Shown: positions 14,825 to 31,828, numbered from the stretch's first letter. The stretch is DNA of 32,000 nucleotides from Candidatus Saccharimonadota bacterium (GCA_016699955.1 CP064993.1:480001-512000), one strand, 5' to 3'. Numbers and translations: made by a program. Notes: generated by a model not told the origin, from the sequence alone.

Positions 14825-15654
14825 ATGAGCATAACAACAAGACGGCTACAAAGAACCCAACAGACAACCTCAGCAATCTGGCCAGATGCGACCAATACTG
14901 GTTACAGAGGAACGCTGACAAATTACAGCGGCGGCTCGTCAATTCTCGTTAGCACAACTCTGGTGAATAAGAGGATTTCAACAGCGCTTCAGGTCTTTTC
15001 GGGAGCGACACTCACACTAAACAACTGCTGGGTGGATGGTGGCTTTATTGATGGTGATTATGCCGATCAACCGATCACCCTTACTGACTGCCAGATTGAT
15101 GCTGGAGAGTGGCAGGGGGCGGCGGTGACGGGGTACAACATTCACATTACACGCTGTAACATCACTGGTGCTCAGCATAGCGTTTTGGCCTCAGATAATG
15201 TCACGGTAGAAGACAGTTGGCTACATGATCAGTACGGTGGCCCAGTCGGCAGCTCTTATCACAATAACGCTTTTATTTCGAACGGTGGCAGCAATATCAT
15301 GGTGAGGCATAATCGGTTGGATTGTTCGGTACCGCTGAATGGTTCGGGTGGTGGACCAACCGCCGATGCTTCAATCTTGGTGATTTTGCTACGATGACCG
15401 ATGTCACTTTCGATAACAATCTTTTTATGCCAACAACTGGCGGCTACGGTGGTACATTTGGCTATAATCCGGCTAAGCCATACGGGAGCAACCCGAGCTA
15501 TATTGTAGTTACAAACAATGTCTTCCAGCGCGGCCCGACCGGCATATGTGGTGTCTACGGCACAGTCACGTCTTTTTTGAGTAGTGGAACGGGTAATGTT
15601 TGGTCTAACAATACCTACGAAAACGATGGCACGATCATACCACCTGCCGAGTAA
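14825..15654 (+). pseudogene. right-handed beta-helix (pectate-lyase-fold) protein, frame-disrupted (ORFs 14825-15397 and 15322-15654)
   Basis: It is a paralog of the intact 19010-19921 gene and of 16202-17286 (WPDATNTGY; SWLHDQ...YHNN; NNLFMPTTGGYGG; NNVFQRG). The two ORFs overlap at 15322-15397 and the downstream frame is offset by -1. The junction is likely near CTTGGTGAT (about 15377-15385). Confidence 0.7.
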
Positions 15655-15750
15655 ATTTTCTCTGACTACCTCCTCAAATAGCAATATTCTTTTGCCGCTG
15701 AATATATTCACCACATTTACCGCTGGTAGGATTATGCTAAACTGGAAACC

Positions 15751-16191
15751 ATGAGCAGGTTTGCACAGAGGCTTAGGAGTGCAGTTGGAAAAGGCGGTGT
15801 GCTATATTTATCGCCTATGTCCGGCAGTTATAGCGGCGGTTCGACGGTAAACGTGGCTATCCGTATGACAAGTGGCAGCACGCTTGTTAATACTGTACAG
15901 GCAAATCTTACTTACCCTACCGCTCAGCTGCAATTTGGCAGTATCAGTACTGTCGGTAGTCCGTTTACGACCACAATTCAGAGCAACGGCGGAAGTGGTT
16001 CTGTCCAGCTTGGCGTCGGCATATTGGCTGGTTCGACTTTTGGTGATCAGCTCGTAGGGGTTATTACGTTTACTGCGACTGCTGCTGGTGCTGCGACAGT
16101 GACTTTTAACGCTGGTTCTGGTATTGCCAGAACTGCCGATGCAGTCGATATCTGTACTCAAAAGCGCGGAGCAGCGTATACAATAACCTAA
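15751..16191 (+). CDS. cohesin-like domain protein (MS-R-F-x-Q-R-L N-terminal tag, no signal peptide)
   Basis: LSPMSGSYSGGSTVNVAIRMTSGSTLVNTVQANLTYPTAQLQFGSISTVGSPFTT...VGVITFTATAAGAATVTFNAGS follows the cohesin layout: a first strand with a selected set, then 'Y(D/P)...L.F' and 'i.F.a...G.a.l.f'. Confidence 0.55.
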   Translation: MSRFAQRLRSAVGKGGVLYLSPMSGSYSGGSTVNVAIRMTSGSTLVNTVQANLTYPTAQLQFGSISTVGSPFTTTIQSNGGSGSVQLGVGILAGSTFGDQLVGVITFTATAAGAATVTFNAGSGIARTADAVDICTQKRGAAYTIT

Positions 16192-16201
16192 GGACTAGAT
16201 C

Positions 16202-17286
16202 ATGCTCTATCATAAAATCCAAAAAGCCATCCGTATTCACAGCCTTAGCCCCGTTCTAGTAGTGGCTGGTTGCCTAGCCTTAACAGTTAGCGTGGTTGTC
16301 TGGGCGGCCAATGTCTATACCAGTCTAGAGACAGAAAGTGGTACTGTTGCAACCGCCATAGTTGTCGGTGATGCGTCGGCTTCAGGTGGTCAGGCGGTTA
16401 AGTTCGGGGCGGCTGGTAGCTGTACCTATGCTGGTCATGTACCCGATGGAACTGATGGCTTTGGCGGTTGTTGGCCGGGGCCGAACAATACGGGCGTACC
16501 GGATGGTACTACGCTAACCAACTATACCGGCCCCTGCACAATCACCACCAATAACACTGTAATTGACGCTAAAACGGTTAACTGCGATCTGCATGTTAGG
16601 GCACAAAATGTTACTATCACGAGATCTATGATCAATGGCTATATTGAAACCTCTAATGATAGTGGCACTTCTTATAATTACGCAGTGACAGATAGCACAA
16701 TTCACGTTGCTGATATTAATTATCGCGGTTTATTGTACTCAGACTACATTGCCACTAGAGTGGATGTTTCTGGCGGGCAAAGTATGGCTTGGTGTGACAC
16801 TTGTACAATTCAAGACTCATATCTCCATAACCCACTTGAGGATCCCGAGGAGCAGCTGCCAATCACGCCGCTCATAATTCTACAGTTCGTGTTTCAAAAT
16901 ATGCAAATCTCATACACAATACTTTGTGGTGTAATGTAGTTGAGTACCCTCAACCAGATGGGTTGGATGCCTCGGGATGTTCGGCAAATCAAACTGCCTA
17001 TAGTCATGACGGCGCACCTCCCTACAACAGCACCATAGAGAAGAACCTTTATATGCCGACGACAGGCGGGTACTGCGCTTATGGTGGTTCTACATCTGGA
17101 GACCTAGCTGCGGTACACGATATTGTCTTTAAGGATAATGTATTTAAACGGGGTACAGTGCAAGGCGAAAACAACCGTGGCTTTGTCTGTGGGTATTGGG
17201 GACCGATAACGAGTTTTGATAGTAACCGGCCAGGCAATCAATGGATTAATAATAGATGGGATGACGGCACTATCTTGCTGCCGTAG
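16202..17286 (+). pseudogene. membrane-anchored/secreted right-handed beta-helix protein, frame-disrupted (ORFs 16202-16939 and 16924-17286)
   Basis: An N-terminal hydrophobic anchor (LSPVLVVAGCLALTVSVVVWA) is present. CWPGPNNTGVPDGTTLTNYTG and SYLHNP match the paralogs. After DP (about 16841-16850) homology continues in the -1-offset frame (GAAANHAAHNSTVRVSKYANLIHNTLWCNVV...KNLYMPTTGGYCAYGG). A C-run at 16844-16846 is a plausible site of a 1-nt loss. Confidence 0.7.
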
Positions 17287-17306
17287 AATTGAAGAAAGAA
17301 GATCGT

Positions 17307-18155
17307 ATGAGATTACCAGCTGTTGATTACTTAAAAACAAAATGGAAAGCAAAAATATCGCGAAAAGTGATGGTTGTTATGGCTTTCCTAACAATTCTAG
17401 TCATGCCATCGTTGGTAGTATATATGACAACATCTGAGTCACAACAAGTCCTACCGGCAACGTCGATGGGCAATATGTATCTAGCACCGGAGGCGCCGCA
17501 AGCCAAGCAAGGTGATCCTTTGGCTGTCAACGTGCGGATTGAACCTGGTACGCCGATAGATACAGTGGTCGCAAGGCTACAATTTAACCCCGACCAGTTG
17601 ACCTATACATCGGTTTCGTATCAAAATTCACCATTTGCTACCCAAATACCGATAGTCGTCACCAGCAACCGCGTCACGGTAGAGAGTGCAAAATTTGGTA
17701 ACGGCCCCGTGACGGCTGATTCGTTGATTGCGCAGGTCACATTTACTGCCAAACAAACTGGAGTAGCGGAACTGACGCTAAGTGGTGACGCTGCCTATGC
17801 TGGTGTGGCCACTCACCCGACAATTATGGGCGAGGTAGTACCCATAACTACAAGTAACTCCACGCCAGCTTCGGCTGGGCAACCAGTTACAGGTGTAGCT
17901 AGGCAAACTGAAACGGCATCCAGGACTACTGCTAGCGCACCAGTACAATTAACCAAGTCTCTTCTAACTTCGATAGGTCTTTCCGAATACAAAGCCGCAG
18001 CAGTCGCGCCTGTGTTAGCAATTTGTCTCGGTGTTTGTGTGGCTAGTGGCTTCGGCTATGCGCTTTACCGCTTTCTTGCTAGGCGTCGACGTGTACTGGG
18101 CTTAGATAAAAATAAACCCATTATTCACAAACAGGGAGACAATCATGTCGAATAA
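17307..18155 (+). CDS. cohesin-like domain protein with N-terminal signal/anchor and C-terminal transmembrane anchor
   Basis: The N-terminal hydrophobic segment is VMVVMAFLTILVMPSLVVYM. The cohesin-like core reads MYLAPEAPQAKQGDPLAVNVRIEPGTPIDTVVARLQFNPDQLTYTSVSYQNSPFAT...AQVTFTAKQTGVAELTLSGDA. An S/T/P linker is followed by the C-terminal TM segment VAPVLAICLGVCVASGFGYALY and then RFLARRRR. ATG 17307 is preferred over TTG 17289 because of the GAAGAAAGAAG upstream. Confidence 0.6.
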   Translation: MRLPAVDYLKTKWKAKISRKVMVVMAFLTILVMPSLVVYMTTSESQQVLPATSMGNMYLAPEAPQAKQGDPLAVNVRIEPGTPIDTVVARLQFNPDQLTYTSVSYQNSPFATQIPIVVTSNRVTVESAKFGNGPVTADSLIAQVTFTAKQTGVAELTLSGDAAYAGVATHPTIMGEVVPITTSNSTPASAGQPVTGVARQTETASRTTASAPVQLTKSLLTSIGLSEYKAAAVAPVLAICLGVCVASGFGYALYRFLARRRRVLGLDKNKPIIHKQGDNHVE

Positions 18156-18807
18156 ACTACAGCTGTACTGGAGTAAATTTGCTCTGGCACTCGTTAGCGT
18201 GGTTATGGTGGTTGCAGCCGTACCAACGCCATCGGTGTACGCCGCTGCTTGTACGCCGCCAGGAACCAATTACGGTACGGTAACTCAAACATCCAACATC
18301 AGCTCGGCCGGCACCTACCGCATCTGGACGCGAATGGCGGCAGCTAATAGCACGGACAATACTGTTCTGCTCGAAATCGATGGCAACACTTGCTATGTCG
18401 TAGGTGGTAGCAGCGTCCCGACCTATGCCAGTGGCGCTACAAATTACTTCGTTAACAACAAGACAAACTGGATCAGTAAGACTACTGGCGGGACAAATAT
18501 AGACGTATCTTTTACTACGGGCAATCACACAGTAAAGCTAATCGGCAATGGTCCGGGTGTTGTAATTGACCGAGTGCTGCTTACCAAAGACACTACATGT
18601 ACCCCGACAGGTACTGGCAGTAACTGCGCCAGCATCTACTTTGCGGCTGATATCGATCAAAACGGTAGCGTCAACTTCCTAGACTTTAGCCGTCTCGCGA
18701 GCAAATACAACCAAAGTGGGGGTGGCTTGGGGCGGACCGATATTAACCTCGATGGCACGGTTAGCTTTTTAGACCTTAGTCTGATGGCCAACACCTATGG
18801 CCAGTAA
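18145..18807 (+). CDS. secreted CBM-like domain protein with C-terminal dockerin (two EF-hand-like repeats)
   Basis: The signal peptide is ...LALVSVVMVVAAVPTPSVYAAA. The CBM-like pattern is AGTYRIWTRMAAANSTDNTVLLEIDG...FTTGNHTVKLIGNGPGVVIDRVLL. The dockerin duplicates are DIDQNGSVNFLDFSRLASKY and DINLDGTVSFLDLSLMANTY (about 18645-18804). Its start overlaps the stop of the preceding cohesin gene. Confidence 0.7.
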   Translation: MSNKLQLYWSKFALALVSVVMVVAAVPTPSVYAAACTPPGTNYGTVTQTSNISSAGTYRIWTRMAAANSTDNTVLLEIDGNTCYVVGGSSVPTYASGATNYFVNNKTNWISKTTGGTNIDVSFTTGNHTVKLIGNGPGVVIDRVLLTKDTTCTPTGTGSNCASIYFAADIDQNGSVNFLDFSRLASKYNQSGGGLGRTDINLDGTVSFLDLSLMANTYGQ

Positions 18808-19009
18808 ATATATACTTGCAAAAAACTCCCCCTCAGACTTATGTAGGAGCATACATATGCCGCTTTTTTCGGTTTGGGGTTTACGGGCTCTACCTTCCCC
18901 AGACAAACCGCTTTCTGGTTTACTCTTGGCCGACCCCGAAGACGTTGGGGTTTTCGTAAGTCGAGTCAAGGCGATTGGTCATCTGAGGTGAATTTAATAC
19001 ACTAGGATT

Positions 19010-19921
19010 ATGAGTAGTTTTACCAGACGAATACAACGAGTTCCTGCGGTTTCTCCGCCGGCACTGGGTGGCTGGCCAGATGCGACGAACACTGGACCGG
19101 AAGCTGCTGGCTACACCAACTTAACCGCCTGGACAGACGGCTACCTGATCGGACCGACCTATTCAAACACGGTGATCAGTGGCAAGATTTTCGACGGCAT
19201 TGGGCCTCAGGTGACCGGAAACAACGTAACATTTCGTGGTTGTATCATTCGAGAAACGTATCCCAATGGTTTTTTGTTGCGACTGGACGGCACGAACACG
19301 ACATTCGAAGATTGCCGGTTTACGCCCGCAGTTGGTGTGATGCCCCCGGTGAGTTTGGCGGCCTCATATCAGCAGGGAATCAAAATGATCAATGGTGTCG
19401 GCCTTACGGTCCGGCGATGTGAGTTTTGGGGCTTTGGAAATGCTATCGAATTTGAACCATCGAGCGCAACCCAGGCTAACCCGATTCTTGTAGAGGACTG
19501 TTGGATGCACGACGCGGCCGACCAGAGTGGTGATACTTATCATCACGACGGTATATTGTCGTCTTATGCATCGTCATGGGTGAGTGTTGATCACTGTCGG
19601 ATAGTCTCCGGCGGCAACACTAACGCCATCGCTTTCCAGTCAACTGGAGGCCAATGGTCGAAAATTGTAGTGAACAACTGTTTGCTCGGCGGGTTTGGAT
19701 ATACAGTCAATATTGGCGATAGTTTTGGTGGTAATAACATTACCCTTACGAACAATGTGTTTGACACATCTATAGTATGTGACTGGGGTCCATTTAAAAA
19801 TGATTGGTCAGGGTTTACTGGCACAAATGTATGGCAGGGGAACACTTGGGACACGGGGGGTTACTGGTGGCCAACAGATGGCGCTTCGACTGGCGGGCAT
19901 GGTTCTGACTGGGCAGGATAA
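19010..19921 (+). CDS. right-handed beta-helix (pectate-lyase-fold) protein, intact paralog
   Basis: The N-terminus is MSSFTRRIQRVP...GGWPDATNTGP. Repeating N-x-T-F/V-x-x-C turns are present, with CWMHDAADQSGDTYHHDG and NNCLLGG / LTNNVFD. It has no signal peptide. Confidence 0.75.
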   Translation: MSSFTRRIQRVPAVSPPALGGWPDATNTGPEAAGYTNLTAWTDGYLIGPTYSNTVISGKIFDGIGPQVTGNNVTFRGCIIRETYPNGFLLRLDGTNTTFEDCRFTPAVGVMPPVSLAASYQQGIKMINGVGLTVRRCEFWGFGNAIEFEPSSATQANPILVEDCWMHDAADQSGDTYHHDGILSSYASSWVSVDHCRIVSGGNTNAIAFQSTGGQWSKIVVNNCLLGGFGYTVNIGDSFGGNNITLTNNVFDTSIVCDWGPFKNDWSGFTGTNVWQGNTWDTGGYWWPTDGASTGGHGSDWAG

Positions 19922-19959
19922 GCTAGATTACCGCTAATCTGAGCTATATAATAGTTACC

Positions 19960-20856
19960 ATGAGCAGGTTTACGAGACGGCTTCAACAGGGAGTGAGTGG
20001 CTTTAGCGACAGTTTGCGACCAGCTGCGCCGATAATTACCAGCAGCGCTACTGCAACAACTACTACACCGACCATCAATGGGACGGCTGAGCTTGGGACA
20101 ACTGTAGAGATCAGCATAAATAACCATGTATATTCTAGTTCGACCAACGGTAGTGGAGTATGGTCAATCGTAGTCGTAGATACGCTGACACAAGGCAATG
20201 CCTATACGTTGACAGCTTCAGCTCGCAATGCAGCTGGATATGTTTCTAAAGTTGCAGCAACTCAAAACCTGACAGTCAGCGGCTCCGCTGGCACGTTTGC
20301 TGGTACAAAGGTCGCGATCATCGGTGACTCTTTGACCTATCAGGCAGATAATGGTCAATATGATATACCGGCGGCCTTTACCTCGGCTGGCTGGCCAACT
20401 GATGCTACCTGGTTTTACTCTTGGGACGGCAAGAAAATAGCCGAGTCAGATTGGGGCAATCTTACTACCATGCAAAATATTGCGCAATGTCGTTTGGATA
20501 TTGGCGAGCCAGATGTTTGGGTTATTGCGCTTTGTACAAATAATGGTAGTGACTCGGTGCAAAAAATAACTAGCGATATGCAACTGGTATTTAATGCACT
20601 TGGCTCGTCGGCACGCCTACTCTGGGTCAATAAAGGTGATTGGTGGGTTCCACCCGATTCAGACATTAACAATACTATCGCCTCGATGATATCGTCACGA
20701 CCATATTCAATGTTAGCTGACTGGTACAGTGTTGTCGAAAATACTGCCGATCAAACCAACTGGTGGACAGACGGAACTCACATGACAAGATACGGCTACT
20801 CAATACGCAATAATTTCATCGCTGCTAAATCGGTAGAACTTTTTAACCAGGGATAA
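19960..20856 (+). CDS. bacterial Ig-like domain + SGNH/GDSL hydrolase (esterase/deacetylase-type)
   Basis: The N-terminal tag is MSRFTRRLQQ. The Ig-like segment is PTINGTAELGTTVEISINNHVYSSSTNGSGVWSIVVVDTLTQGNAYTLTASARNAAGYVS. SGNH block I is VAIIGDSLTYQ and block V is WWTDGTHMTRYGY. A TATAAT box at 19947-19952 lies 7 nt upstream of the ATG and there is no Shine-Dalgarno. Confidence 0.75.
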   Translation: MSRFTRRLQQGVSGFSDSLRPAAPIITSSATATTTTPTINGTAELGTTVEISINNHVYSSSTNGSGVWSIVVVDTLTQGNAYTLTASARNAAGYVSKVAATQNLTVSGSAGTFAGTKVAIIGDSLTYQADNGQYDIPAAFTSAGWPTDATWFYSWDGKKIAESDWGNLTTMQNIAQCRLDIGEPDVWVIALCTNNGSDSVQKITSDMQLVFNALGSSARLLWVNKGDWWVPPDSDINNTIASMISSRPYSMLADWYSVVENTADQTNWWTDGTHMTRYGYSIRNNFIAAKSVELFNQG

Positions 20857-20959
20857 TATAACCGAGCTTGGCCTACTTAAAGAGCTGAAATAATCCATTG
20901 ATTAATCTTGGTAGCCCTGAAGACGCTAATGTTGATGGTGTTTTGGTCTGTGCGCTTCC

Positions 20960-21073
20960 AATATCTCTGTTATAATCATAACCAGTTAAACTATTATCTA
21001 AAGGGAAGTGAGACAACTATGCCATTCACAGGAACCGGCACCGGCATCCAAAACGCAAACGACGTATTCTTCA
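20960..21073 (+). repeat. copy 1 of a perfect 114-bp repeat (promoter + 5'UTR + first 18 codons)
   Basis: By direct comparison it is identical to 22981-23094. Confidence 0.9.
20968..20976 (+). promoter_or_regulatory. extended -10 promoter element TGTTATAAT
   Basis: It matches the TGnTATAAT consensus exactly, 42 nt upstream of ATG 21019. It lies inside the ORF-track N-terminal extension (TTG 20908), which is therefore rejected. Confidence 0.5.
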
Positions 21074-21572
21074 GCGTCCTTGCTCAAGACCATATCCTTC
21101 GTTATGACAACGCTACTGCCAAATGGATTAATATTCCTCTCTCAGTAGCGACAACAGCCCTAACCGATAACTCAGTTACCGAACCAAAGCTATCTATTAG
21201 CAACGCACCTACTACCAACTACGTCCTTAGCTGGAATGGTTCAGCCATGACCTGGGTTGCTCAAGCCACTGGAGCAGATGCAACCACTACCACAAAAGGT
21301 ATTGTCCAACTAGCCGGTGATCTCGCTGGTACTGCTGCTGCACCAACTGTACCAGGACTGGCTGGTAAAGCAGCGACGGTGCATACGCATGCTCAAGCTG
21401 ACGTCACAGGACTAGTCGCTTCACTTGCCGCCAAAGAGGCGACAATCACAGCTGGGACTACTTCTCAATATTATCGTGGTGATAAATCATGGCAAACCCT
21501 AGATAAGTCAGCTGTTGGCCTTGCTAACGTCGATAATACTTCAGATGCTAGTAAACCGGTTTCGACTGCGAC
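21019..21572 (+). repeat. copy B of the 553/554-bp near-identical dispersed repeat
   Basis: See 13127-13679. This copy carries A4 and keeps the reading frame. Confidence 0.9.
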
Positions 21573-22887
21573 GCAGACTGCCTTAAACGCCAAGGCTAGC
21601 ACAACAACAACCATAACTGGGACTACTTCACTAACAGGAGGCGGCGACTTATCTGCTAACCGAACACTAACGCTTGTCAATGACAACGCAAGTCCAGGTG
21701 CTGATAGGTACTATGGTACAAATGTTGGCGGTACGAAGGGTTGGTATGCACTTGCAGGTGGTGGCTCATCAGGGCAGTTTGGCTACATCTTCCTTGACGA
21801 TCAAGCCGGTGCTACTGACGATGATAAACTGACCGCTGCCATTGCCGCACAGCAATCTACCAACGGTATGCCACCTATTGTACTAGGTGCCAGGAGTCAT
21901 TCCTTTAACCAGACTCGTACTCTATACTCTGGGCTTAAGCTTATAGGCCAATCTACTGGTCCAAAAAACCTTGAACAAAACCCTAACTTTGTAACCTCTC
22001 GTATTGTACTAGGTGCGGCAGTCTCATCAGGCGCAAGCAGTTGGTGGGTGACCCCAGGAGGAAACTTATTTGACATATACATGGCAGATTTTGCTGTAAA
22101 CGGTAACGAAGGCGCCTCTGTCCACCAGTTCATGGATGTAAACAGTGGAACACTATACGCGTGTGAGTTCCATAGCTTGGCATTTGACTTCATGCGATCA
22201 GTATTGGGACGCAAAGATCGCACCTTCTTAATGACACAAGTTGTACTTTCTGGCCACTGGACAGCAAATAATCTGTGGGATACGCAGTTTCACCTCGGTG
22301 GGTCAGATAACTCACTGTGGATGGGTGGCATGATTAACATGGGACCATCAGCATCCCCAGCACAGACAGGAACCTATGCCGATAATGATTACGAATTTAT
22401 GTTTAACAATATGTCAAAGACAAATGTAGGGTACATATACATGACTGCACTTAACGGATGGCGAGGTATTCGTGTTCAAGGAACTTCTTCTTTCCTGACG
22501 TTCTATGGTGGTGTATATGAGGGTTACAACGCGGGGACACCTGCACCGGGTACAGTTATACGTCTTGAAGGTGGAGTTGGTTCATTCTATGGTCCTAACA
22601 TCGGTCAGGGAATGGGCAGCCCGGATGCGGCTGAAGGTGGTCTTGTTCACATCACCGGTGGTGAATGGAACTTCTACGGACCGATATTTTACCGAGGTAA
22701 CATGACAGACACAACCCCTTGTATCTACCAATCTGGGGGCCGTGTTCACGTCACAGGGGCAACACGCCGCCAGAGTGAGACTTGGACTGCACGCCCTGTA
22801 CTAGATACTGGAGCTGCAGGTGGAAATACAGCTGGTACAGGAACCTACACGACATACGTTCCCGATCTTTCTATGAACGTCACCTAA
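21019..22887 (+). CDS. tail-fibre-like protein with tailspike/depolymerase-like beta-helix C-terminal domain (mosaic gene)
   Basis: The protein starts MPFTGTGTGIQNANDVFF and carries the fibre motifs GIVQLAGDLAGTAAAPTV, HTHAQADV, YYRGDKSW and VGLANVDNTSDASKPVSTATQTAL. The C-terminal 365 aa or so (AGATDDDKLTAAIAAQQ...) are homologous to the C-terminus of 23040-24491. An AAGGGAAGTGAG Shine-Dalgarno is present. Confidence 0.8.
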   Translation: MPFTGTGTGIQNANDVFFSVLAQDHILRYDNATAKWINIPLSVATTALTDNSVTEPKLSISNAPTTNYVLSWNGSAMTWVAQATGADATTTTKGIVQLAGDLAGTAAAPTVPGLAGKAATVHTHAQADVTGLVASLAAKEATITAGTTSQYYRGDKSWQTLDKSAVGLANVDNTSDASKPVSTATQTALNAKASTTTTITGTTSLTGGGDLSANRTLTLVNDNASPGADRYYGTNVGGTKGWYALAGGGSSGQFGYIFLDDQAGATDDDKLTAAIAAQQSTNGMPPIVLGARSHSFNQTRTLYSGLKLIGQSTGPKNLEQNPNFVTSRIVLGAAVSSGASSWWVTPGGNLFDIYMADFAVNGNEGASVHQFMDVNSGTLYACEFHSLAFDFMRSVLGRKDRTFLMTQVVLSGHWTANNLWDTQFHLGGSDNSLWMGGMINMGPSASPAQTGTYADNDYEFMFNNMSKTNVGYIYMTALNGWRGIRVQGTSSFLTFYGGVYEGYNAGTPAPGTVIRLEGGVGSFYGPNIGQGMGSPDAAEGGLVHITGGEWNFYGPIFYRGNMTDTTPCIYQSGGRVHVTGATRRQSETWTARPVLDTGAAGGNTAGTGTYTTYVPDLSMNVT

Positions 22888-22922
22888 ACATTTCCTAGCA
22901 ATCTAGTAAATTTAAATGATAA

Positions 22923-22960
22923 TTAACCCCAGCTCGGCGCTTACAGCTAGCTGGGGTTAA
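22923..22960 (+). terminator. stem-loop terminator candidate (12-bp perfect stem)
   Basis: TTAACCCCAGCT (22923-22934) pairs with AGCTGGGGTTAA (22949-22960) around a 14-nt loop. TCCATAATCTTTTC follows. It lies between the stop at 22887 and the next promoter. Confidence 0.5.
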
Positions 22961-22980
22961 TCCATAATCTTTTCACTTCT

Positions 22981-23094
22981 AATATCTCTGTTATAATCAT
23001 AACCAGTTAAACTATTATCTAAAGGGAAGTGAGACAACTATGCCATTCACAGGAACCGGCACCGGCATCCAAAACGCAAACGACGTATTCTTCA
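22981..23094 (+). repeat. copy 2 of the perfect 114-bp repeat (promoter + 5'UTR + first 18 codons)
   Basis: It is identical to 20960-21073. Confidence 0.9.
22989..22997 (+). promoter_or_regulatory. extended -10 promoter element TGTTATAAT
   Basis: This is the same element as 20968-20976, 42 nt upstream of ATG 23040. Confidence 0.5.
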
Positions 23095-24491
23095 ATGTCC
23101 TTGCTGATGGCCAGATCCTTGAGTACAACAGTACGACTGCGAAATGGGTTAATGCCGCAAATACCAGCGACCCAGTACTTGGTGGTGATCTGACTGGCAC
23201 TGCCAGCAATGCTCAGATAGCTGCCAATGCCGTCGGCACTACTCAAATCGCTGACGGAGCAGTAACCGAACCAAAACTAGGCGCCAGCAACGCGCCGAGT
23301 ACCAACCAAGTACTGAGCTGGGATGGCTCTAATATTACCTGGGTGACACAAAGCACGGGGGTAGATGACGGAACAAGGTTGCTTGATTCATTTGCTGGTG
23401 CGACCGACGACGACAAACTGACTGCTGCTATTGCCTGGCAGCAGGGACATTCTCGCATGCCTGCGATTCGCTTAGGTTCGCGTATTCATACGTTTAACCA
23501 AACGAGGCAGCTGTATAGTGGCCTCAAGATTATTGGTACACCGGCAGGTCCTCGCAACCTCGAGCAAAGTGGCGGTGTGTTTGTACCGACCAGGATCAAC
23601 CTCGGAGCAGCCATATCGTCTGGTGCGAGTTCATGGTGGGTCACACCTGGAGGAAACTTGTTCGATATATATATGGCTGATTTTGCGGTTTCCGGTAATG
23701 CGGGATCATCCGTACACCAATTTATCGATGTCACTACGGGTTCCCTATATGCCTGCCAGTTCCATGCACTGAGTTTCAACTTTATGCGGAGCGTTTTTGG
23801 ACGCAAGGATCGCAAATGCTTGGTGACGCAAGTTATATTTTCTGGCCACTGGACGGCAAATAACCTGTGGGACACACAGTTCATGCTCGGTGGTGCTGAC
23901 TGTAATCTCTGGATGGATGGTTTCTTAAACATTGGCCCGAGTTCGAGCCCTGCACAAACCGGTACCTATGCAGACAATGACTACGAACTCATTTTTGACA
24001 GCCTGAGCAAGACCAACGTAGGTTATATCTTTATGTCAGCTCTCAACGGCTGGCGTGGCCTCAAGGTTTCCGGCAGTGCCGGTCACGGACTTCGTTTTTT
24101 CGGCGGAACCTACGAAGGCTATAAAAGTAGCAACGACAACCTCGCCGCACCAGGTACGGTTATTCGACTAGAGGGAGGCAAAGGAGCATTCTTCAGCCCA
24201 AGCCTCGGCCAGGGCATGCAAAGTCCAGATGCTGCCGAGCTAGGCCTCGTACACATAACTGGTGGGGAGTGGGCGTTTTACTCACCGACTTTTTATCGCA
24301 CACCAGCTGCCGATACTGTGCCGATGATCTATGTTTCTGGAGGCCGTGTATTGGTAGAAGGTGCTACACGCAACGACGACCAAGAAGCTTGGACAACACG
24401 TCCGAAGTATCTTCTCGGAGGGGGAGTGGCGACTGGTCCGAACAGTGGTGAAAATGTTTTCTACTGCCCAGATATGTCGATGGTTCCATAA
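23040..24491 (+). CDS. short fibre-module protein with tailspike/depolymerase-like beta-helix C-terminal domain
   Basis: The N-terminus is MPFTGTGTGIQNANDVFF, followed by GGDLTGTASNAQIAANAV and VTEPKLGASNAPSTNQVLSWDGSNITW. The C-terminal domain begins AGATDDDKLTAAIAWQQ and includes SSWWVTPGGNLFDIYMADFAV, SGHWTANNLWDTQF and APGTVIRLEGG. It is paralogous to 21790-22884. Confidence 0.8.
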   Translation: MPFTGTGTGIQNANDVFFNVLADGQILEYNSTTAKWVNAANTSDPVLGGDLTGTASNAQIAANAVGTTQIADGAVTEPKLGASNAPSTNQVLSWDGSNITWVTQSTGVDDGTRLLDSFAGATDDDKLTAAIAWQQGHSRMPAIRLGSRIHTFNQTRQLYSGLKIIGTPAGPRNLEQSGGVFVPTRINLGAAISSGASSWWVTPGGNLFDIYMADFAVSGNAGSSVHQFIDVTTGSLYACQFHALSFNFMRSVFGRKDRKCLVTQVIFSGHWTANNLWDTQFMLGGADCNLWMDGFLNIGPSSSPAQTGTYADNDYELIFDSLSKTNVGYIFMSALNGWRGLKVSGSAGHGLRFFGGTYEGYKSSNDNLAAPGTVIRLEGGKGAFFSPSLGQGMQSPDAAELGLVHITGGEWAFYSPTFYRTPAADTVPMIYVSGGRVLVEGATRNDDQEAWTTRPKYLLGGGVATGPNSGENVFYCPDMSMVP

Positions 24492-24880: not shown

Positions 24881-24940
24881 GTTTTCACTATAACACCTAA
24901 TACAAACATATGCGCTATAATGTATCTAAAGGGGAAAAGT

Positions 24941-25876
24941 GTGTTAAAACGACGAGCACAACAAGCCGCAGCTGGAGCGTTACTTACGACTGAAACTCAG
25001 TTTACGTTTATTTCGATTCCTGACACTCAGCAAGACAACAGCAGCGCTGTACGTACCGCCGTGTTTGCCGAGCGTATGACCTGGATACGAGATAACCGTG
25101 AGGCACTCAATATTAAGTTCATGGTACAAGTCGGCGACCTTGTCGACTGGGACGACGAAACTCATAGCCATTATGTGCGAGCCGATACCGGTCTCGATAT
25201 TCTGGACGCTGTAAATTTTCCCTACGCACTTTGTATCGGCAACCACGATACAGCCGCCGTGCAATATGGCGGTAGTGCCGCACCTGGTGACGTTAACGCG
25301 AACCTTCGCAATACGAGTACGTTTAACAGCTATTTTCCCGTCTCACGCTTTCCGAATATTGCCGGTGTGTATGAAACTGGAAAAGTTGACAATGCCTACC
25401 GCACGTTTCAAGCAGCTGGGCTCAACTGGCTGGTCATGAATGTTGAGTTTTGTCCACGCGCGGGGGTGTACCCTTGGGCAAATGGTGTCATACAGGCTCA
25501 TCCTAATCACAATGTCATCATCCTGACACACATGTATCTCGAAGGTAACGGTGCAGTCAGTGGTAGTAACGCCGGTTACGGCGATACGAGCCCACAAACC
25601 ATGTACGATACAATCATCAAGAATAACCCAAATGTTAAATTCACGTTTTCTGGTCATTTGCCTGTATGGTCAAGCTCTGTTTCTACGAGCGCTACGACTG
25701 GCCACAAAACATACAACCTCATGGATTGTTGGCATGACTATTCTAGTAATCCGACGCGTGTCTGTACGTTTGATATTCCCGCTGGCACAGTATCGACCCA
25801 GGTGTACGATCCCAAAACAGACAGCTGGCGAGCCAGTACCATCCTTAATTTTACTGGTATAACCTGGGTTACGTAG
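24941..25876 (+). CDS. calcineurin-like metallophosphoesterase
   Basis: Metallophosphoesterase motifs are present in canonical order: FISIPDTQ (D-x-Q/H), VQVGDLVD (GD-x-x-D), GNHD, and ILTHMYL and GHLP (H motifs). GTG 24941 is preferred (AAAGGGG Shine-Dalgarno at 24928-24934, TATAAT at 24916-24921). The ORF-track ATG 24920 overlaps the -10 box. Confidence 0.7.
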   Translation: MLKRRAQQAAAGALLTTETQFTFISIPDTQQDNSSAVRTAVFAERMTWIRDNREALNIKFMVQVGDLVDWDDETHSHYVRADTGLDILDAVNFPYALCIGNHDTAAVQYGGSAAPGDVNANLRNTSTFNSYFPVSRFPNIAGVYETGKVDNAYRTFQAAGLNWLVMNVEFCPRAGVYPWANGVIQAHPNHNVIILTHMYLEGNGAVSGSNAGYGDTSPQTMYDTIIKNNPNVKFTFSGHLPVWSSSVSTSATTGHKTYNLMDCWHDYSSNPTRVCTFDIPAGTVSTQVYDPKTDSWRASTILNFTGITWVT

Positions 25877-25943
25877 TTGTCTTTTCGAGCTTGCTACTAC
25901 CTGACAAACTGACCGTTTTCACTTTATCGAAACGTTCGCAACA

Positions 25944-27017
25944 CGTATAGAACTCAAGACCTTTGCAACATTGCAGCAGGCACCTGCATCTGTATGCCTA
26001 AGTGTACTCGCTTCGTGTTGTAGTAGTCGAGATACGCAGTAAGCTTATCTCGCTGGCTTTGGAGCGGTACGCTCCTGCGCCAGTAGTATCCAATACATTC
26101 TGTCTGGATAGTTCGGTTGTATCGCTCTATGTGAGCATTGTCATTGGGTCGGTGCAATCGGGAGTGTCTAGTGGTAATACCTCGTGAGCGAAGCACTTGC
26201 TCAAAGTAGCGTCCGTACTCTGGACCATTGTCTGCCTGCACCATGGAAATAGTAAAGCCCCATTGGTCTTGTGCTTCCAGGACCGCCCGTGCAGCAAGCC
26301 CTGGGCTGAGCCGGGTTGCTAGAATGACGTACGTCATTCTAGTGAATAGGTCAATGACCGTGTAGTAATACAGACGCTTACCGCTGTGTGGATCGACATG
26401 GTGGATAGTATCTGTCTGTACGAGCTCACCAGGCCCTGTGGCTTGTGGACGTCTCGGGTTATCTGGTCGTACTCGCTTCTTCCTGGCTCCATCAAAGCAG
26501 TAGTGTCGCCGTAATATACGGCGCACACTGCTAAGGCTAACAATGGCTGTGCCGTAGGCATCGCCAACTCGTGTCAGGTGGTACCACACCACCTCAGCAC
26601 AACGTTTGAGTCTATGTCGTAATTCAAGTATCCGAGTCATGAGTTGCTCGCCTATTGCCTGAGGGCTTGTATGGGGCCGAGATGTGTACGTAGGGATGAG
26701 CCATGTACATCGCAGTAGGTGGTTTGCTTTGCTGTACACACGGGCTGGGCGGTTGGGATTGTCGAACTGAACATGCTCATTGAGCTTGTCCCACTTCTGC
26801 TTCCATCTCCAGATGGTGGTACGGTGTACACCGCAACGGTTGGCAACAATCTGCAAGGGTATTCCCTCACACACAAGCAACCGCATTGCCAAAGCTCTCG
26901 CTTTAGGTAGGTTAGGGTTGATAGAATAGGCCATGGTAGGCTCCTTCCTGTTAGATGTAATGCTCTTACAGTTTAGGATGCCTACCTTTTAGGTTGCAAA
27001 GGTGGTGAGTTAGTACG
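25944..27017 (-). mobile_element. IS481-like (IS3/IS481 superfamily) insertion sequence, about 1074 bp, with imperfect terminal inverted repeats and candidate 6-bp target-site duplication
   Basis: The left end CGTATAGAACTCAAGACCTTTGCAAC (25944-25969) matches the reverse complement of the right end (26993-27017), CGTACTAACTCACCACCTTTGCAAC. The inner 11 nt are perfect, and 19 nt match with 2 mismatches. GCAACA directly flanks both ends (25938-25943 and 27018-27023). Confidence 0.65.
25954..26934 (-). CDS. DDE (rve/integrase-core) transposase, single-ORF IS481-like
   Basis: The N-terminal HTH is IVANRCGVHRTTIWRWKQKW. The DDE core reads VQTDTIHHV ... VQADNGPEY ... NDNAHIERYNRTIQTE. The stop codon lies within the left IR, as is common in IS481-type elements. 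Confidence 0.85.
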   Translation of the reverse strand: MAYSINPNLPKARALAMRLLVCEGIPLQIVANRCGVHRTTIWRWKQKWDKLNEHVQFDNPNRPARVYSKANHLLRCTWLIPTYTSRPHTSPQAIGEQLMTRILELRHRLKRCAEVVWYHLTRVGDAYGTAIVSLSSVRRILRRHYCFDGARKKRVRPDNPRRPQATGPGELVQTDTIHHVDPHSGKRLYYYTVIDLFTRMTYVILATRLSPGLAARAVLEAQDQWGFTISMVQADNGPEYGRYFEQVLRSRGITTRHSRLHRPNDNAHIERYNRTIQTECIGYYWRRSVPLQSQRDKLTAYLDYYNTKRVHLGIQMQVPAAMLQRS

Positions 27018-27099
27018 GCAACATTTACTATTCAAAGAAATGAGTGTATAAGTATGTATATTAGTGCAGGGTAATAAGTGCGTGGGAAGGGAGTAGACA

Positions 27100-29694: not shown

Positions 29695-29882
29695 TTCATA
29701 CCTTCTCAGCTGATCAGTCGGACTTCATACTTTGCGAGTCGTTCATGCTACCCTGCGGGTTAGTTACGTCGAGTTGCTGTAAGCAGTACTGTTGGCGCTT
29801 TCCGGGGTTAAGTGAGCGAGAGCGGAGCCTTCAGGAGTGGGGTGCTTAAGACAATTGGGTTAACTCCATTTGTCTCAAGCGG

Positions 29883-29905
29883 GGCGGGCGAGCCCGCCAC
29901 TTTTT
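29883..29905 (+). terminator. rho-independent terminator candidate (GGCGGG-CGAG-CCCGCC + T5)
   Basis: A 6-bp GC stem (29883-29888 / 29893-29898) with a tetraloop is followed by ACTTTTT. It sits in the convergent gap between 27100-29694 (+) and 29909-31828 (-). Confidence 0.55.
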
Positions 29906-29908
29906 GAA

Positions 29909-31828
29909 CTAACTGCGCCAGCAGCCAGCGTGTTTCGTGCCGGTTGGTTGTCCAGCCAGTCCAGCAATTGACGCGGAAAGCGCAACAGCTTTGGTGTGTA
30001 GAACGGCGTAGCCACCGGTGACGACATAGTTGGCGTCAATCGGCGATGGGTTTGAAGTGCCTGAACTTTTCGGGTTGATTTCGGTGCCATTTGGGTTGAG
30101 TGAGGTAGCGCTGACCATAGCGGCATGCGTCGAATAGACGATAGGTGTTGAGCTGCCGACAGATGTCGGCGGGAATATATACGGGTAGGGATAGGTAGTG
30201 CTCGGCGCAGTCGCCCAGTGAAATACGTTGCCGTCCATGACAGTGCCGTAGGCGGCTAGCAGCTGATTTGTGCCACCGGACTGAATCTGTTGGTCATCGA
30301 TACAAAACATAGCGTACGCGTTTGACGGTGTGCCAACCACGACGTTGTTATGGATAGTAACGTTGTTGATCTGCCATGTCATATAGCTGCTATACATAGC
30401 GTGCCCGAGCGGGTAACGACCGTCTAGACCGTAACTCGTGTTGGCGGGTCGTCGGCTTTCCTGGTAGACCGCCAGAGGGCGACGATCGCCGTTACCATGG
30501 TTGGACGTGTCGGGGTTGAGCCGCTGAGAGAGGCTACCGCAGCGCACGATTGTGTTGTTCCATACTTCCATGTTGTCTGTGTTGTTGACCTTGATCGCCT
30601 CGGCCGGGTTGTCGACAAACAGGTTGTTGGTGCAGATTCCGGTGCCACTGATTTCAAAGAACGCATCAGTGTCTTTGTTGCGTAAGAAATCGTTGCCGTA
30701 GACTTCCATGTCGTAGACCGACATGTCGAACCAAACAACTTTGCATTTGTTGTCGCGGAAGATACTGTTTCGGACGGTGACGTGTTGGGACTGTGTGACC
30801 TTAATCACCCCTGAGTCAGGCGATGAGTTGAAGTTTTCGGTGTTGGTGTACTCGATCAAAATATTGTCGAACAACAAATTGTCTGATCGGTAGCCGCCCG
30901 AAGCTCGGTAGCCTGCGCGTCGGATTGTCACGTTTCGGATGGTGTTGCCATGGCACTGGTTTGAGGTTAGTGCTGCGGTCGCGATATCTTCCATGACAAT
31001 GTTTTCAGCCAGACAGTTAGTTGTGTTGTTATTGCCGTCAAAGCGCAGCACTGAATACTGCGGCAGGGAATTGCCATATCGACGAATGCCAAAACCACGG
31101 ATTGTCAGGCCGGTATAGCCAGTACCAAGGTTTAAAAAGATGTGCATATCGGTCACATTGACTGTTTTGCCGGCCGGATTTGTCCCGATGTAAAGTGTGG
31201 ACGGCGTGAAAATCATGTTGCTAGTTGTACCCTGCACATAGAAAGTACCGGCTACGCACGCTCCCAATGATCCGACTTGCGTCAGCGCGACACCATCTAC
31301 GAACACCTGCTCAGGGAATGGCGCCTGCGGATAATTGGCGTTGATCCATTGCCAACCTGGGGTTGAGCCGTCCGCAGCACCACTCGTGCTGGTGGGGCTA
31401 TGGTCAAATACTTTTGTCCATGGGATAGACCAAGTTGCACCGCTCTGCGACCAACCAGTTTGGACGCTCGAACCATCAAACCAAACCGCTTCACCGGGGT
31501 AGTTTTGAATCGTCAAGTTGTTTCTGTTCACCTCGATGCCGATAGCCGAAGTGTGATTTGAGCCGCCTTCATGGTACGTACCGGCTCGTAATACGATGGT
31601 TTTTCCGCTGGTTGCCGCAGTAATGGCTCGCACGAGTGTGCGGTACGGCGCGCCGATCGTACCTACGCCGGTCGTATCGTTGCCACCCGTCGCAACATAA
31701 ATAGCATCACCAGGTACAGCGTAACTGGCCGCACCGACCGCCACCGAGCCAGCGTTAGCCGTTGGATTTGTGCCGGTTGCCGTAGTTCTAGGACCTACTT
31801 TTTGTAGTCTTCGTGCCGAAATGCTCAT
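29909..31828 (-). CDS. right-handed parallel beta-helix repeat protein (DUF1565/pectate-lyase-like)
   Basis: AIYVATGGNDTTGVGTIGAPYRTLVRAITAATSGKTIVLRAGTYHEG is the typical N-terminal cap of this family, and many N-x-(T/V/I)-(I/V)-x-(N/D) turns follow. ATG 31828 (MSISARRLQK, matching the N-terminal tag family) is preferred. A TATAAT box at 31840-31835 lies 6 nt upstream. The ORF-track GTG 31846 would overlap that box. Confidence 0.8.
   Translation of the reverse strand: MSISARRLQKVGPRTTATGTNPTANAGSVAVGAASYAVPGDAIYVATGGNDTTGVGTIGAPYRTLVRAITAATSGKTIVLRAGTYHEGGSNHTSAIGIEVNRNNLTIQNYPGEAVWFDGSSVQTGWSQSGATWSIPWTKVFDHSPTSTSGAADGSTPGWQWINANYPQAPFPEQVFVDGVALTQVGSLGACVAGTFYVQGTTSNMIFTPSTLYIGTNPAGKTVNVTDMHIFLNLGTGYTGLTIRGFGIRRYGNSLPQYSVLRFDGNNNTTNCLAENIVMEDIATAALTSNQCHGNTIRNVTIRRAGYRASGGYRSDNLLFDNILIEYTNTENFNSSPDSGVIKVTQSQHVTVRNSIFRDNKCKVVWFDMSVYDMEVYGNDFLRNKDTDAFFEISGTGICTNNLFVDNPAEAIKVNNTDNMEVWNNTIVRCGSLSQRLNPDTSNHGNGDRRPLAVYQESRRPANTSYGLDGRYPLGHAMYSSYMTWQINNVTIHNNVVVGTPSNAYAMFCIDDQQIQSGGTNQLLAAYGTVMDGNVFHWATAPSTTYPYPYIFPPTSVGSSTPIVYSTHAAMVSATSLNPNGTEINPKSSGTSNPSPIDANYVVTGGYAVLHTKAVALSASIAGLAGQPTGTKHAGCWRS

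What the first reader, a model, noticed from the sequence alone, without database searches (positions are those of the whole stretch)
14825..31828. Second conserved N-terminal tag, M-S-x-(F/T/S)-x-(R/Q)-R-(L/I)-(Q/R), on five proteins with unrelated extracellular-type domains and no signal peptide
The five N-termini are MSITTRRLQRTQQ (14825, beta-helix), MSRFAQRLRSAVG (15751, cohesin-like), MSSFTRRIQRVPA (19010, beta-helix), MSRFTRRLQQGVS (19960, Ig+SGNH) and MSISARRLQKVGP (31828, minus strand, DUF1565-like beta-helix). The domains behind the tag normally act outside the cell. There is no hydrophobic h-region, so neither Sec nor Tat signals fit despite the RR pair. Neighbouring genes (16202, 17307, 18145, 27100) use ordinary signal peptides or anchors. 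The tag could be a recognition signal for an uncharacterised export or assembly route, or a docking peptide analogous to the MPFTGTGTG module.
Basis: seen in the sequence. Interest (0 to 1): 0.7.

Follow-up and report, generated by a model that had tools for sequence, protein, structure and literature searches.

The report
N-terminal arginine tag replacing signal peptides
A group of environmental Saccharibacteria puts the same 10-residue, arginine-rich peptide (about M-S-I-A-A-R-R-L-Q-R) at the very start of dozens of sugar-degrading and binding proteins, exactly where their relatives carry an ordinary secretion signal, so it is probably an undescribed address label for getting folded proteins out of or onto the cell.

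Summary
The motif occurs exactly five times in the six-frame translation, always at an ORF start (0.007 expected). The window comes from a Candidatus Saccharibacteria genome.

The tag is selected as a peptide. Arg and Leu codons vary freely and third codon positions carry almost no information. It also occurs on genes with Shine-Dalgarno sites, so leaderless initiation does not explain it.

It is conserved at residue 1 in more than 25 orthologues of the 639-aa beta-helix, down to 33% identity. It also heads at least 30 further genes in related contigs, up to six in a row. Passengers include GH64, GH71, GH18, GHL15, polysaccharide lyase, several beta-helix families, SGNH and a cohesin-like module.

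None has a hydrophobic core. AlphaFold models the tag as a disordered extension. Relatives elsewhere, and adjacent paralogues in the window, carry classical signal peptides or anchors at the same position.

The tag was not found in 2.9 million viral contigs and matches no NCBIfam signal model.

Best reading (about 0.4): a portable sorting or export tag that substitutes for a signal peptide. Main rival (about 0.25): a docking peptide for the phage-like fibre proteins encoded nearby. No recognition machinery was identified.

The parts
14825..14854 (+). Tag MSITTRRLQR on a WPDATNTG-type beta-helix gene. The gene runs 14825-15397 and continues after a frameshift in 15322-15654.
   Evidence: Pfam Beta_helix
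14812..14817 (+). -10-like hexamer TATTAT, 7 nt before the ATG, with no SD (leaderless-type start)
15751..16191 (+). Tagged cohesin-like protein (tag MSRFAQRLRS at 15751-15780). It is a paralogue of the cohesin domain of 17289. TGcTAAACT -10 at 15738-15743.
   Evidence: (31% identity over 112 aa, E 2e-11)
19010..19921 (+). Tagged beta-helix protein (tag MSSFTRRIQR at 19010-19039), identical to QQS20310.1. -10 TACACT at 18998-19003.
   Evidence: (AF2 pLDDT 92; residues 1-14 below 50)
19960..20856 (+). Tagged Ig-like plus SGNH-like protein (tag MSRFTRRLQQ at 19960-19989). -10 TATAAT at 19947-19952.
   Evidence: Big_13; Lipase_GDSL_2, weak
29909..31828 (-). Tagged Pel9A-like/DUF1565 beta-helix, 639 aa (tag MSISARRLQK at 31799-31828), identical to QQS20317.1. 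Extended -10 TGTATAAT; hexamer at 31835-31840.
   Evidence: (AF2 pLDDT 90; residues 1-18 below 50)
16202..17286 (+). Signal-anchored paralogue of the 14825 beta-helix, with a CBM-like module. It is also frameshifted (16202-16939 plus 16924-17286).
   Evidence: KD 2.64
17289..18155 (+). Cohesin protein with an N-terminal anchor and a C-terminal TM segment. It is the signal-bearing counterpart of tagged 15751.
   Evidence: (Cohesin)
18145..18807 (+). Dockerin protein with a signal peptide, in the same cluster
   Evidence: (Dockerin_1, E 4e-8)
10974..14649 (+). Phage-tail-fibre-like genes lacking signal peptides (MASRLPTPGGDDGTWG..., MPFTGTGTG... modules) that flank the tagged genes
   Evidence: PHROG tail fibre/minor tail; DUF5907, PTR
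21019..24491 (+). Two further MPFTGTGTG fibre-like proteins with a beta-helix-like C-terminal half

Best explanation
The tag is a portable N-terminal address peptide of a Candidatus Saccharimonas-type lineage. It consists of about 10 residues, with consensus M-S-(I/R)-(A/F/G)-A-R-R-(L/F/M)-Q-R, followed by a short Ser/Thr/Pro/Gly-rich linker. It takes the place that a Sec or Tat signal peptide occupies in related proteins.

Inferred mechanism: the tag stays exposed and disordered on an already folded carbohydrate-active enzyme or binding module. A common partner reads it through the invariant Ser2, the Arg-Arg pair and the hydrophobic residue at position 8. The partner routes the protein out of the cytoplasm or onto the cell surface by a route that needs no hydrophobic signal core.

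Shown: peptide-level selection, strict N-terminal position, modular spread across unrelated folds, replacement of signal peptides, disorder in models, and restriction to one lineage.

Inferred: that the destination is extracellular, and that a dedicated recognition or translocation component exists.
For: Peptide-level conservation:
- 57 unique tags give M1 100%, S2 88%, A5 75%, R6 89%, R7 96%, L/F/M8 88%, Q9 65%, R10 77%.
- For codons 5-10, second codon positions carry 1.45-1.79 bits (codon 9: 0.54) and third positions 0.12-0.38 bits. The six Arg codons all occur across the three conserved Arg positions (five or six at each).
- Ser2 is AGY in 29 of 29 cases. This is expected if the tags share ancestry under selection for Ser.

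Strict N-terminal position: every match of at least 8 bits to a local tag HMM, among 2,506 stop-to-stop segments, starts at an ATG at or near the first start codon.

Orthologue conservation: more than 25 orthologues of the 639-aa protein, from 79% down to 33% identity, keep the tag.

Replacement of signal peptides:
- Actinobacterial homologues of the same family carry classical signal peptides.
- Other Saccharibacteria members of the WPDATNTG family carry signal anchors.
- In the window, the cassette [beta-helix][cohesin-like] exists as a tagged copy (14825, 15751) directly beside a signal/anchor copy (16202, 17289).

No h-region: 61 tagged proteins have a median maximum hydropathy of 0.96 (highest 1.74), against 2.05-3.21 for intact signal-bearing comparators.

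Passengers are extracellular-type CAZymes: GH64+fn3, GH71, GH18+fn3, GHL15, polysaccharide lyase, PKD+beta-helix and SGNH fusions.

Many tagged genes per genome: six in 8.9 kb (L123) and six to seven in 9.8 kb (L139). Some tagged genes stand alone among housekeeping genes (L106).

A promoter-plus-tag cassette of about 110 nt is shared by two unrelated ORFs.

AF2 models leave residues 1-14 and 1-18 as low-confidence coil on two different folds.

Tag-like n-regions fused to hydrophobic cores exist in relatives (P0185; L036).
Against: - No translocase, receptor or processing enzyme was identified.
- No gene family other than the fibre proteins recurs next to tagged genes in the flanks available.
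- No known export pathway accepts an N-terminal peptide without a hydrophobic core. The claimed route therefore has no precedent, and extracellular location is inferred only from domain types and homologues.
- The best structural match of the 639-aa protein is a GH120 xylosidase, XylC. To my knowledge that enzyme lacks a signal peptide, so a cytoplasmic role for some passengers cannot be excluded.
- The whole source genome could not be read, so the genome-wide count and any co-occurrence with secretion genes are unknown.
Confidence: 0.4

Rival explanations
1. Docking (assembly) peptide. The tag fastens enzymatic or adhesive heads onto a common scaffold built from the phage-tail-fibre-like proteins encoded nearby. 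This would resemble phages with several receptor-binding proteins, which attach interchangeable tailspikes through a conserved N-terminal adaptor.
For: - Tagged genes are interleaved with signal-less fibre-like genes that carry their own conserved N-terminal modules. This is seen in the window, L001, L100, L104 and L147.
- The WPDATNTG beta-helix family also occurs in actinobacterial prophages and IMG/VR contigs. There it has an analogous short N-terminal peptide, M.R..VTR.ARP.
- Foldseek's top hits for the 19010 model are phage tailspikes and depolymerases.
- The architecture of a flexible N-terminal peptide plus linker fits a docking arm.
Against: - The tag patterns tested find no real tag in 2.9 million viral contigs.
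- No virion or baseplate genes lie near any tagged gene.
- Clusters of six tagged enzymes (L123, L139) and a solitary tagged gene (L106) have no fibre gene within the available flanks.
- The Pel9A-like family has secreted cellular homologues rather than phage ones.
- Ten residues is short for a stable attachment.
- Docking alone does not explain how signal-less proteins would leave the cell.
Confidence: 0.25
2. Minimal or vestigial Tat signal. The tag is the n-region and twin-arginine motif of a Tat signal peptide whose hydrophobic core has been lost. It is either still read by TatC or is a remnant.
For: - An invariant RR pair is preceded by small or polar residues.
- P0185 carries MAKFARRVFLTASGVVGLVATAPPFAARA, a tag-like start followed by a typical Tat h- and c-region.
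- L036 paralogues carry ...SARRLSRRQALLVAGLTAAIG....
- The passengers are folded secreted hydrolases, a common class of Tat cargo in Actinobacteria (background knowledge).
- 24920 in the window has KRRAQQAAAGALLTT, a possible weak Tat signal.
Against: - No h-region is present. The residues after RR (L-Q-R) do not fit the consensus x-F-L-K.
- No NCBIfam signal model hits at E <= 1.
- Strong purifying selection over orthologues down to 33% identity argues against a mere remnant.
- Starr et al. 2018 found a complete Tat system in only one of the Saccharibacteria genomes they analysed (PMC6031116).
Confidence: 0.12
3. Not a routing signal. The tag could be a cationic tether that binds anionic cell-wall polymers or membrane. 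Alternatively it could be an N-terminal regulatory or degradation signal for proteins that act in the cytoplasm or are released by cell lysis.
For: - The tag has a net charge of +3 to +4 in ten residues.
- It is disordered and exposed.
- No export machinery was found.
- One passenger resembles a GH120 xylosidase.
Against: - Position-specific conservation of Ser2, Ala5, the hydrophobic residue at position 8 and Gln9 exceeds what a charge patch needs.
- The tag is always at residue 1.
- It systematically substitutes for signal peptides.
Confidence: 0.1
4. Nucleotide-level constraint of leaderless initiation, mis-called start codons, or chance.
For: - All five window genes have a -10 box 6-7 nt before the ATG and no SD.
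- 16 of 32 tagged genes are of this type, against 24 of 100 controls.
- Ser2 is always AGY.
Against: - 8 of 32 tagged genes have SD sites or sit inside tightly packed operons.
- Third codon positions are nearly free and all Arg codon families are used.
- Only the 30 coding nucleotides are similar between genes, not the upstream 60 nt.
- Five hits were observed against 0.007 expected.
- Starts are fixed by upstream stops, by NCBI annotation and by orthologues.
Confidence: 0.02

Closest known systems
Tat (twin-arginine) signal peptides
   Same: Both are N-terminal, have a basic n-region with an invariant Arg-Arg pair, occur on folded secreted hydrolases, and sit at the same position in homologues. 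A few relatives carry a tag-like start fused to a Tat-type hydrophobic core (P0185, L036).
   Different: The tag has no hydrophobic h-region and no A-x-A c-region. The residues after RR do not fit x-F-L-K. No NCBIfam signal model hits. The Tat machinery was reported as complete in only one of the Saccharibacteria genomes analysed by Starr et al. 2018 (PMC6031116).
Conserved N-terminal adaptor peptides of phage receptor-binding proteins. An example, from my own knowledge and not tested here, is the short conserved N-terminus of the second tailspike of KP32-type Klebsiella phages, which docks onto the first.
   Same: Both have a short conserved N-terminus plus a flexible linker plus an interchangeable depolymerase-like head. 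Both lack a signal peptide. Both lie next to tail-fibre-like genes. One passenger family is shared with actinobacterial prophages.
   Different: The tag is encoded in chromosomal islands and among housekeeping genes, not in virion gene clusters. The tested tag patterns found nothing real in IMG/VR. There are many tagged genes per genome, including classical GH families.
Shared sorting tags of secreted protein families (T9SS C-terminal domain, PEP-CTERM, LPXTG)
   Same: One short conserved tag marks dozens of otherwise unrelated secreted or surface enzymes within a lineage. Tagged genes cluster.
   Different: Those tags are C-terminal and act after Sec export through an N-terminal signal peptide. 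Here the tag is the only N-terminal feature and no Sec signal is present.
N-terminal encapsulation or loading peptides (bacterial microcompartment encapsulation peptides, eCIS/PVC cargo leaders)
   Same: Both are a short N-terminal peptide plus linker that addresses folded cargo to a protein assembly.
   Different: No shell or contractile-system genes were seen. The cargo here is polysaccharide-degrading enzymes. AF2 does not predict an amphipathic helix for the tag.

Membership tests
Sec-type (SPase I) signal peptide | Hydrophobic h-region of about 7-15 residues after a basic n-region | tested here: not met
   The maximum 11-residue hydropathy in the first 45 aa has a median of 0.96 (highest 1.74) in 61 tagged proteins. 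Intact signal-bearing paralogues and homologues score 2.05-3.21.
Tat signal peptide | Twin-arginine motif in the context (S/T)-R-R-x-F-L-K | tested here: inconclusive
   The RR pair is 96% and 89% conserved, but the following residues are L/F-Q-R, not x-F-L-K.
Tat signal peptide | Moderately hydrophobic h-region and A-x-A c-region | tested here: not met
   Alignment with signal-bearing homologues shows the tag is followed directly by a linker and the mature domain.
Tat signal peptide | Match to the curated Tat-signal model in NCBIfam (I expect TIGR01409; not checked that it is in this copy) | tested here: not met
   An NCBIfam scan of ten tagged proteins at E <= 1 gave no signal-peptide model.
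Tat signal peptide | tatA/tatC present in the genome | not testable with these tools
   The source genome is not retrievable. No TatA motif was found in the fetched loci (uninformative). Tat was complete in only one of the Saccharibacteria genomes analysed by Starr et al. 2018 (PMC6031116).
Phage receptor-binding-protein N-terminal adaptor | Encoded in a phage genome or next to virion or baseplate genes | tested here: not met
   The tested tag patterns gave 0 real hits in viral contigs. Contexts are chromosomal. A tblastn search of INPHARED phages with 19010 found nothing.
Phage receptor-binding-protein N-terminal adaptor | Conserved N-terminus with interchangeable enzymatic or binding C-terminal parts | tested here: met
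   At least 12 passenger families sit behind one tag.
Phage receptor-binding-protein N-terminal adaptor | A partner protein that binds the adaptor | not testable with these tools
Fibre-like genes co-occur in 5 of about 11 independent loci.
Dockerin (cohesin-dockerin assembly) | Duplicated Ca-binding F-hand segment of about 60-70 aa | tested here: not met
   The tag is 10 aa. Pfam Dockerin_1 hits only 18145, which has a normal signal peptide.
Type IV pilin-like (class III) signal | Short basic leader followed by G/A-F-T-L-x-E and a hydrophobic helix | tested here: not met
   No such motif or hydrophobic stretch is present.

The most novel reading that the evidence does not exclude
A clade of Saccharibacteria has a protein-export or surface-display pathway that is independent of signal peptides. 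Its cargo, dozens of folded glycoside hydrolases, lyases, esterases and binding modules, is selected by a 10-residue N-terminal Arg-Arg tag with no hydrophobic core. This would be a secretion-signal class and a translocation route not yet described in any bacterium.
Probability: 0.3. Interest if true: 0.85.

Novelty: new variant of a known kind. Interest (0 to 1): 0.7.

Why it matters
Patescibacteria (CPR) live on or from other microbes. How they deliver enzymes and adhesins to their surroundings is largely unknown.

A short, easily recognisable tag on many signal-less carbohydrate-active enzymes would do three things:
- Give a sequence handle for predicting part of their secretome or surface proteome that signal-peptide predictors miss.
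- Point to an unknown recognition or translocation component that can be found by phylogenetic profiling.
- Provide a portable tag for protein delivery in the few genetically tractable Saccharibacteria.

The cargo list includes beta-1,3-glucanase, alpha-1,3-glucanase, chitinase and pectate-lyase-like beta-helices. This also suggests what polymers this lineage attacks.

Tried and rejected
Look-ups and searches that failed for technical reasons:
- The look-up of encoding contigs for four window proteins found no record, so the 1.21-Mb source genome could not be walked.
- Tag-only profile searches of the big protein databases failed. They hit the E-value cap and minimum length. The word prefilter then kept only 18 candidates. 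The representative search used all 40 columns and listed only hits with E <= 0.001.
That genome-contig scan gave 36 pattern stretches, close to my rough chance estimate of about 34.

Searches that ran but found nothing:
- PHROGs and a tblastn search of INPHARED phages gave nothing for the tagged proteins.
- Literature searches found no description of the tag or of a signal-less export route in Saccharibacteria or Patescibacteria.
- An all-against-all comparison of neighbours found no recurrent candidate machinery gene.
- A TatA-motif scan of the fetched loci was empty and uninformative.

Ideas dropped:
- Genome-specific (concerted) tag variants: positions 8-10 vary as much within L123 and L139 as between genomes.
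- A prophage origin for the window cluster: it begins 97 bp after truB and no virion genes are present.
Full report
WHAT IS THERE

The window is part of a Candidatus Saccharibacteria chromosome. The 19010 and 31828 products are identical to NCBI QQS20310.1 and QQS20317.1, from a 1,211,496-bp contig. An orthologue cluster contains a protein named Candidatus Saccharimonas. Positions 1-10.9 kb hold housekeeping genes: fpg, a trehalose-phosphate synthase-like gene, holA, rpsT, a DHH protein and truB. A variable island begins 97 bp after truB. It contains phage-tail-fibre-like genes (PHROG tail fibre and minor tail families; Pfam DUF5907 and PTR), the tagged genes, signal-bearing paralogues, an IS481-type transposase and a large secreted beta-propeller protein.

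CHECK OF THE OBSERVATION

Shuffles give 0.007 matches. A much looser expression gave four noise hits and no real gene start in 1.35 Mb of loci from other genomes.

The starts are reliable:
- An in-frame stop lies 4-11 codons upstream of each.
- NCBI uses the same starts for two of the genes.
- Orthologues begin at the same residue.

None of the five has a hydrophobic core, whereas 16202, 17307, 18145 and 27100 do.

- 14825 and 19010 are paralogues of one beta-helix family.
- 14825 is interrupted by a frameshift and continues in 15322-15654. Its signal-bearing paralogue 16202/16924 is interrupted in the same way.
- 15751 is a true paralogue of the Pfam cohesin domain of 17289.
- The SGNH assignment of 19960 is weak but plausible.

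PEPTIDE OR NUCLEOTIDE SIGNAL

All five window genes have a TAnnnT hexamer 6-7 nt before the ATG and no Shine-Dalgarno site, so they are probably leaderless. The same tag also occurs on genes with clear SD sites or packed in operons. Examples are L001, L100:17923 (which has a GTG start) and L106. In total, 8 of 32 tagged genes with DNA in hand are of this kind, and 16 of 32 are of leaderless type, against 24 of 100 controls.

Across 31 tags the information content is three-periodic. For codons 5-10, second codon positions carry 1.45-1.79 bits (codon 9: 0.54) and third positions 0.12-0.38 bits. Between them the three conserved arginines use all six Arg codons. Between genes, only the 30 coding nucleotides are similar, not the 60 nt on either side. 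Selection therefore acts on the peptide.

Ser2 is AGY in 29 of 29 cases. This fits common descent of the tags under selection for serine, because AGY and TCN codons are not connected by single synonymous steps (inference).

HOW WIDESPREAD IT IS

The 639-aa Pel9A-like beta-helix has more than 25 orthologues, from 79% down to 33% identity, that keep the tag at residue 1. There are two flavours, both present in the window: MSI(A/G/S)ARR(L/F/M)(Q/L/S)R and MSRF(A/T/V/G)RRLQQ.

A DNA pattern for one flavour found 38 places in the metagenome collection. Fifteen of these, representing 10 distinct genes, are tags at the start of long ORFs. The rest are short-ORF noise. The flanks of these and other loci show dense arrays:
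- six tagged genes in L001;
- three in L100;
- six in 8.9 kb of L123, which lies next to the same DHH-rpsT-holA-fpg block as in the window;
- six to seven in 9.8 kb of L139, and two in L148.

A local HMM of the tag, run on 2,506 stop-to-stop segments of these loci, matched only at ORF starts. The consensus of 57 unique tags is M, S (88%), I (67%) or R, A/F/G, A (75%), R (89%), R (96%), L/F/M, Q (65%), R (77%), then A/V/S/T.

The tag is restricted to one lineage. Seven other Saccharibacteria loci that hold the same beta-helix family use signal anchors instead. The tested tag patterns found nothing real in 2.9 million viral contigs.

WHAT SITS BEHIND THE TAG

The passengers identified are:
- GH64 with fn3 (E = 1e-121), GH71 (2e-25) and GH18 with fn3;
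- GHL15 (1e-27) and a PF14099 polysaccharide lyase;
- several beta-helix families, including Pel9A-like and chondroitinase-B/NosD-like, some fused to PKD, LamG-like or SGNH modules;
- an Ig-like plus SGNH-like protein, a cohesin-like module and a sortilin/BNR-like propeller;
- several proteins with no Pfam match.

AF2 models of two unrelated passengers are confident (pLDDT 92 and 90). They leave residues 1-14 and 1-18 as low-confidence coil, even though the tag is conserved in the alignments used. Structural neighbours are polysaccharide-active beta-helix enzymes and phage tailspikes.

THE KEY ANATOMICAL POINT

The tag sits where relatives have a signal peptide.
- Actinobacterial homologues of the Pel9A-like protein start with classical signal peptides. 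The mature domain begins at the same conserved AGS.PVG..Y.VP motif that follows the tag and linker.
- Inside the window, a two-gene cassette of beta-helix and cohesin-like genes is present twice, side by side. One copy carries tags (14825, 15751). The other carries a signal anchor (16202, 17289).
- In L123 a promoter-plus-tag cassette of about 110 nt is shared by two otherwise unrelated genes, so the 5' module moves as a unit.
- A few relatives have a tag-like start fused to a hydrophobic core: P0185 (MAKFARRVFLTASGVVGLVATAPPFAARA) and the L036 paralogues (...SARRLSRRQALLVAGLTAAIG...).

INTERPRETATION

The tag behaves as a modular address label that is interchangeable with a signal peptide. 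I therefore favour a sorting or export function (confidence about 0.4). The existence of a recogniser and the extracellular destination are both inferred.

The main rival is docking onto the neighbouring phage-like fibre proteins (about 0.25).
- For: the genes co-occur in about half of the loci, and the WPDATNTG beta-helix family occurs in actinobacterial prophages with an analogous short N-terminal peptide.
- Against: there is no viral occurrence of the tag, some tagged arrays and a solitary tagged gene lack nearby fibre genes, and docking does not explain how the proteins would exit the cell.

A minimal Tat signal (about 0.12) is suggested by the RR pair and by P0185 and L036. It lacks the defining hydrophobic region, and Tat was complete in only one of the Saccharibacteria genomes analysed in one study (PMC6031116). 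A charge tether or regulatory N-terminus (about 0.1) cannot be excluded. Leaderless constraint, wrong start codons and chance are effectively refuted.

COMPARISON AND NOVELTY

No NCBIfam or Pfam model covers the tag. No paper in the library describes it. It fails the defining feature of Sec, Tat and pilin-type signals (a hydrophobic core) and of phage adaptors (a phage context). Conceptually it is still a short targeting peptide, so I rate it a new variant of a known kind. There is about a 0.3 chance that it marks a truly new export route.

LIMITS

The source genome could not be read beyond the window. Tag-only searches of the large protein databases failed for technical reasons. No experiment bears on localisation.

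Noticed in passing
window 12513-12992, 13127-13420, 21019-22887, 23040-24491 (+): A different conserved N-terminal module, MPFTGTGTGIQNANDVFF..., heads four phage-tail-fibre-like proteins (PHROG tail fibre, DUF5907 repeats). None has a signal peptide. Counterparts exist in L001, L100 and L104 (MFGGNATISGADDVFF, MVDENNAIAGLDDVFF, MGFSPSGGNISGAGDVALNN).
   Followed up: partly
window 10974-12497 (+); L001 9566; L100 1608 and 13246; L147 5660: Fibre or collagen-like proteins share the start MA(S)RLPxPGxDxGxWGxxLNDYL and a common C-terminal knob ending ...DGTNWYR. This is the only non-housekeeping family that recurs next to tagged genes.
   Followed up: partly
L001 443, 1996, 7648, 12407: A third N-terminal tag, MSFG(I/A/M)(I/T/V)ASSY, heads four related proteins; Pfam gives a weak Laminin_G_3 (LamG) hit on one of them. 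Actinobacterial prophages have a counterpart (VPAGIVQS... / MPAGVVQVNSG...) in the gene directly after their beta-helix gene (L006, L007, L021).
   Followed up: partly
window 13126-13679 versus 21018-21572: A 555-nt direct repeat is 99-100% identical except for a 1-nt indel. The indel splits the first copy into ORFs 13127-13420 and 13486-14649. Together with the frameshifts in 14825/15322 and 16202/16924, this suggests either recent pseudogenisation or indel errors in the assembly.
   Followed up: partly
window 14825-18807: A tandem duplication of a [beta-helix][cohesin-like] cassette has one tagged and one signal-anchored copy. It is followed by a dockerin protein with a signal peptide (18145). 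A small cohesin-dockerin surface system appears to be present.
   Followed up: partly
window 24920-25876 (+): A calcineurin-like phosphoesterase starts MYLKGKSVLKRRAQQAAAGALLTTE. This is an RR pair followed by 12 uncharged residues and could be a weak Tat-type signal.
   Followed up: no
L036 (uncultured bacterium MFD04944.bin.2.55, 829-kb contig), 3768-15502: An array of about eight beta-helix paralogues each starts M.KSGAKLLASARRLSRRQALLVAGLTAAIG.... This is a tag-like ARRLSRR motif inside the n-region of a signal anchor and could be an evolutionary source of the tag.
   Followed up: no
L100 17923(-), L148 6061(-), L139 6695(-): The tagged cargo includes GH64 (beta-1,3-glucanase), GH71 (alpha-1,3-glucanase) and GH18 (chitinase). 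This combination is typical of enzymes that lyse fungal cell walls, and it hints at the polymers this lineage attacks.
   Followed up: no
L147 (PDWI01000713.1), 7166-11321: An HlyD-like gene, a gene for a C39-like-domain ABC transporter and an RTX-repeat gene lie beside a MARLPVPGGDDGNWG fibre gene and a truncated tagged gene. It is unclear whether this contig belongs to the same lineage.
   Followed up: no
window 25954-26934 (-): An IS481-type transposase (rve, HTH_23) lies between the fibre/tag island and the 27100/31828 gene pair.
   Followed up: no
L100 9697-11415 (-); L139 6732-8747 (-); P0072, P0091: Automatic gene calls often miss or overshoot the tag, using a start placed downstream or upstream of it. 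Database surveys based on called N-termini will therefore undercount tagged proteins.
   Followed up: partly
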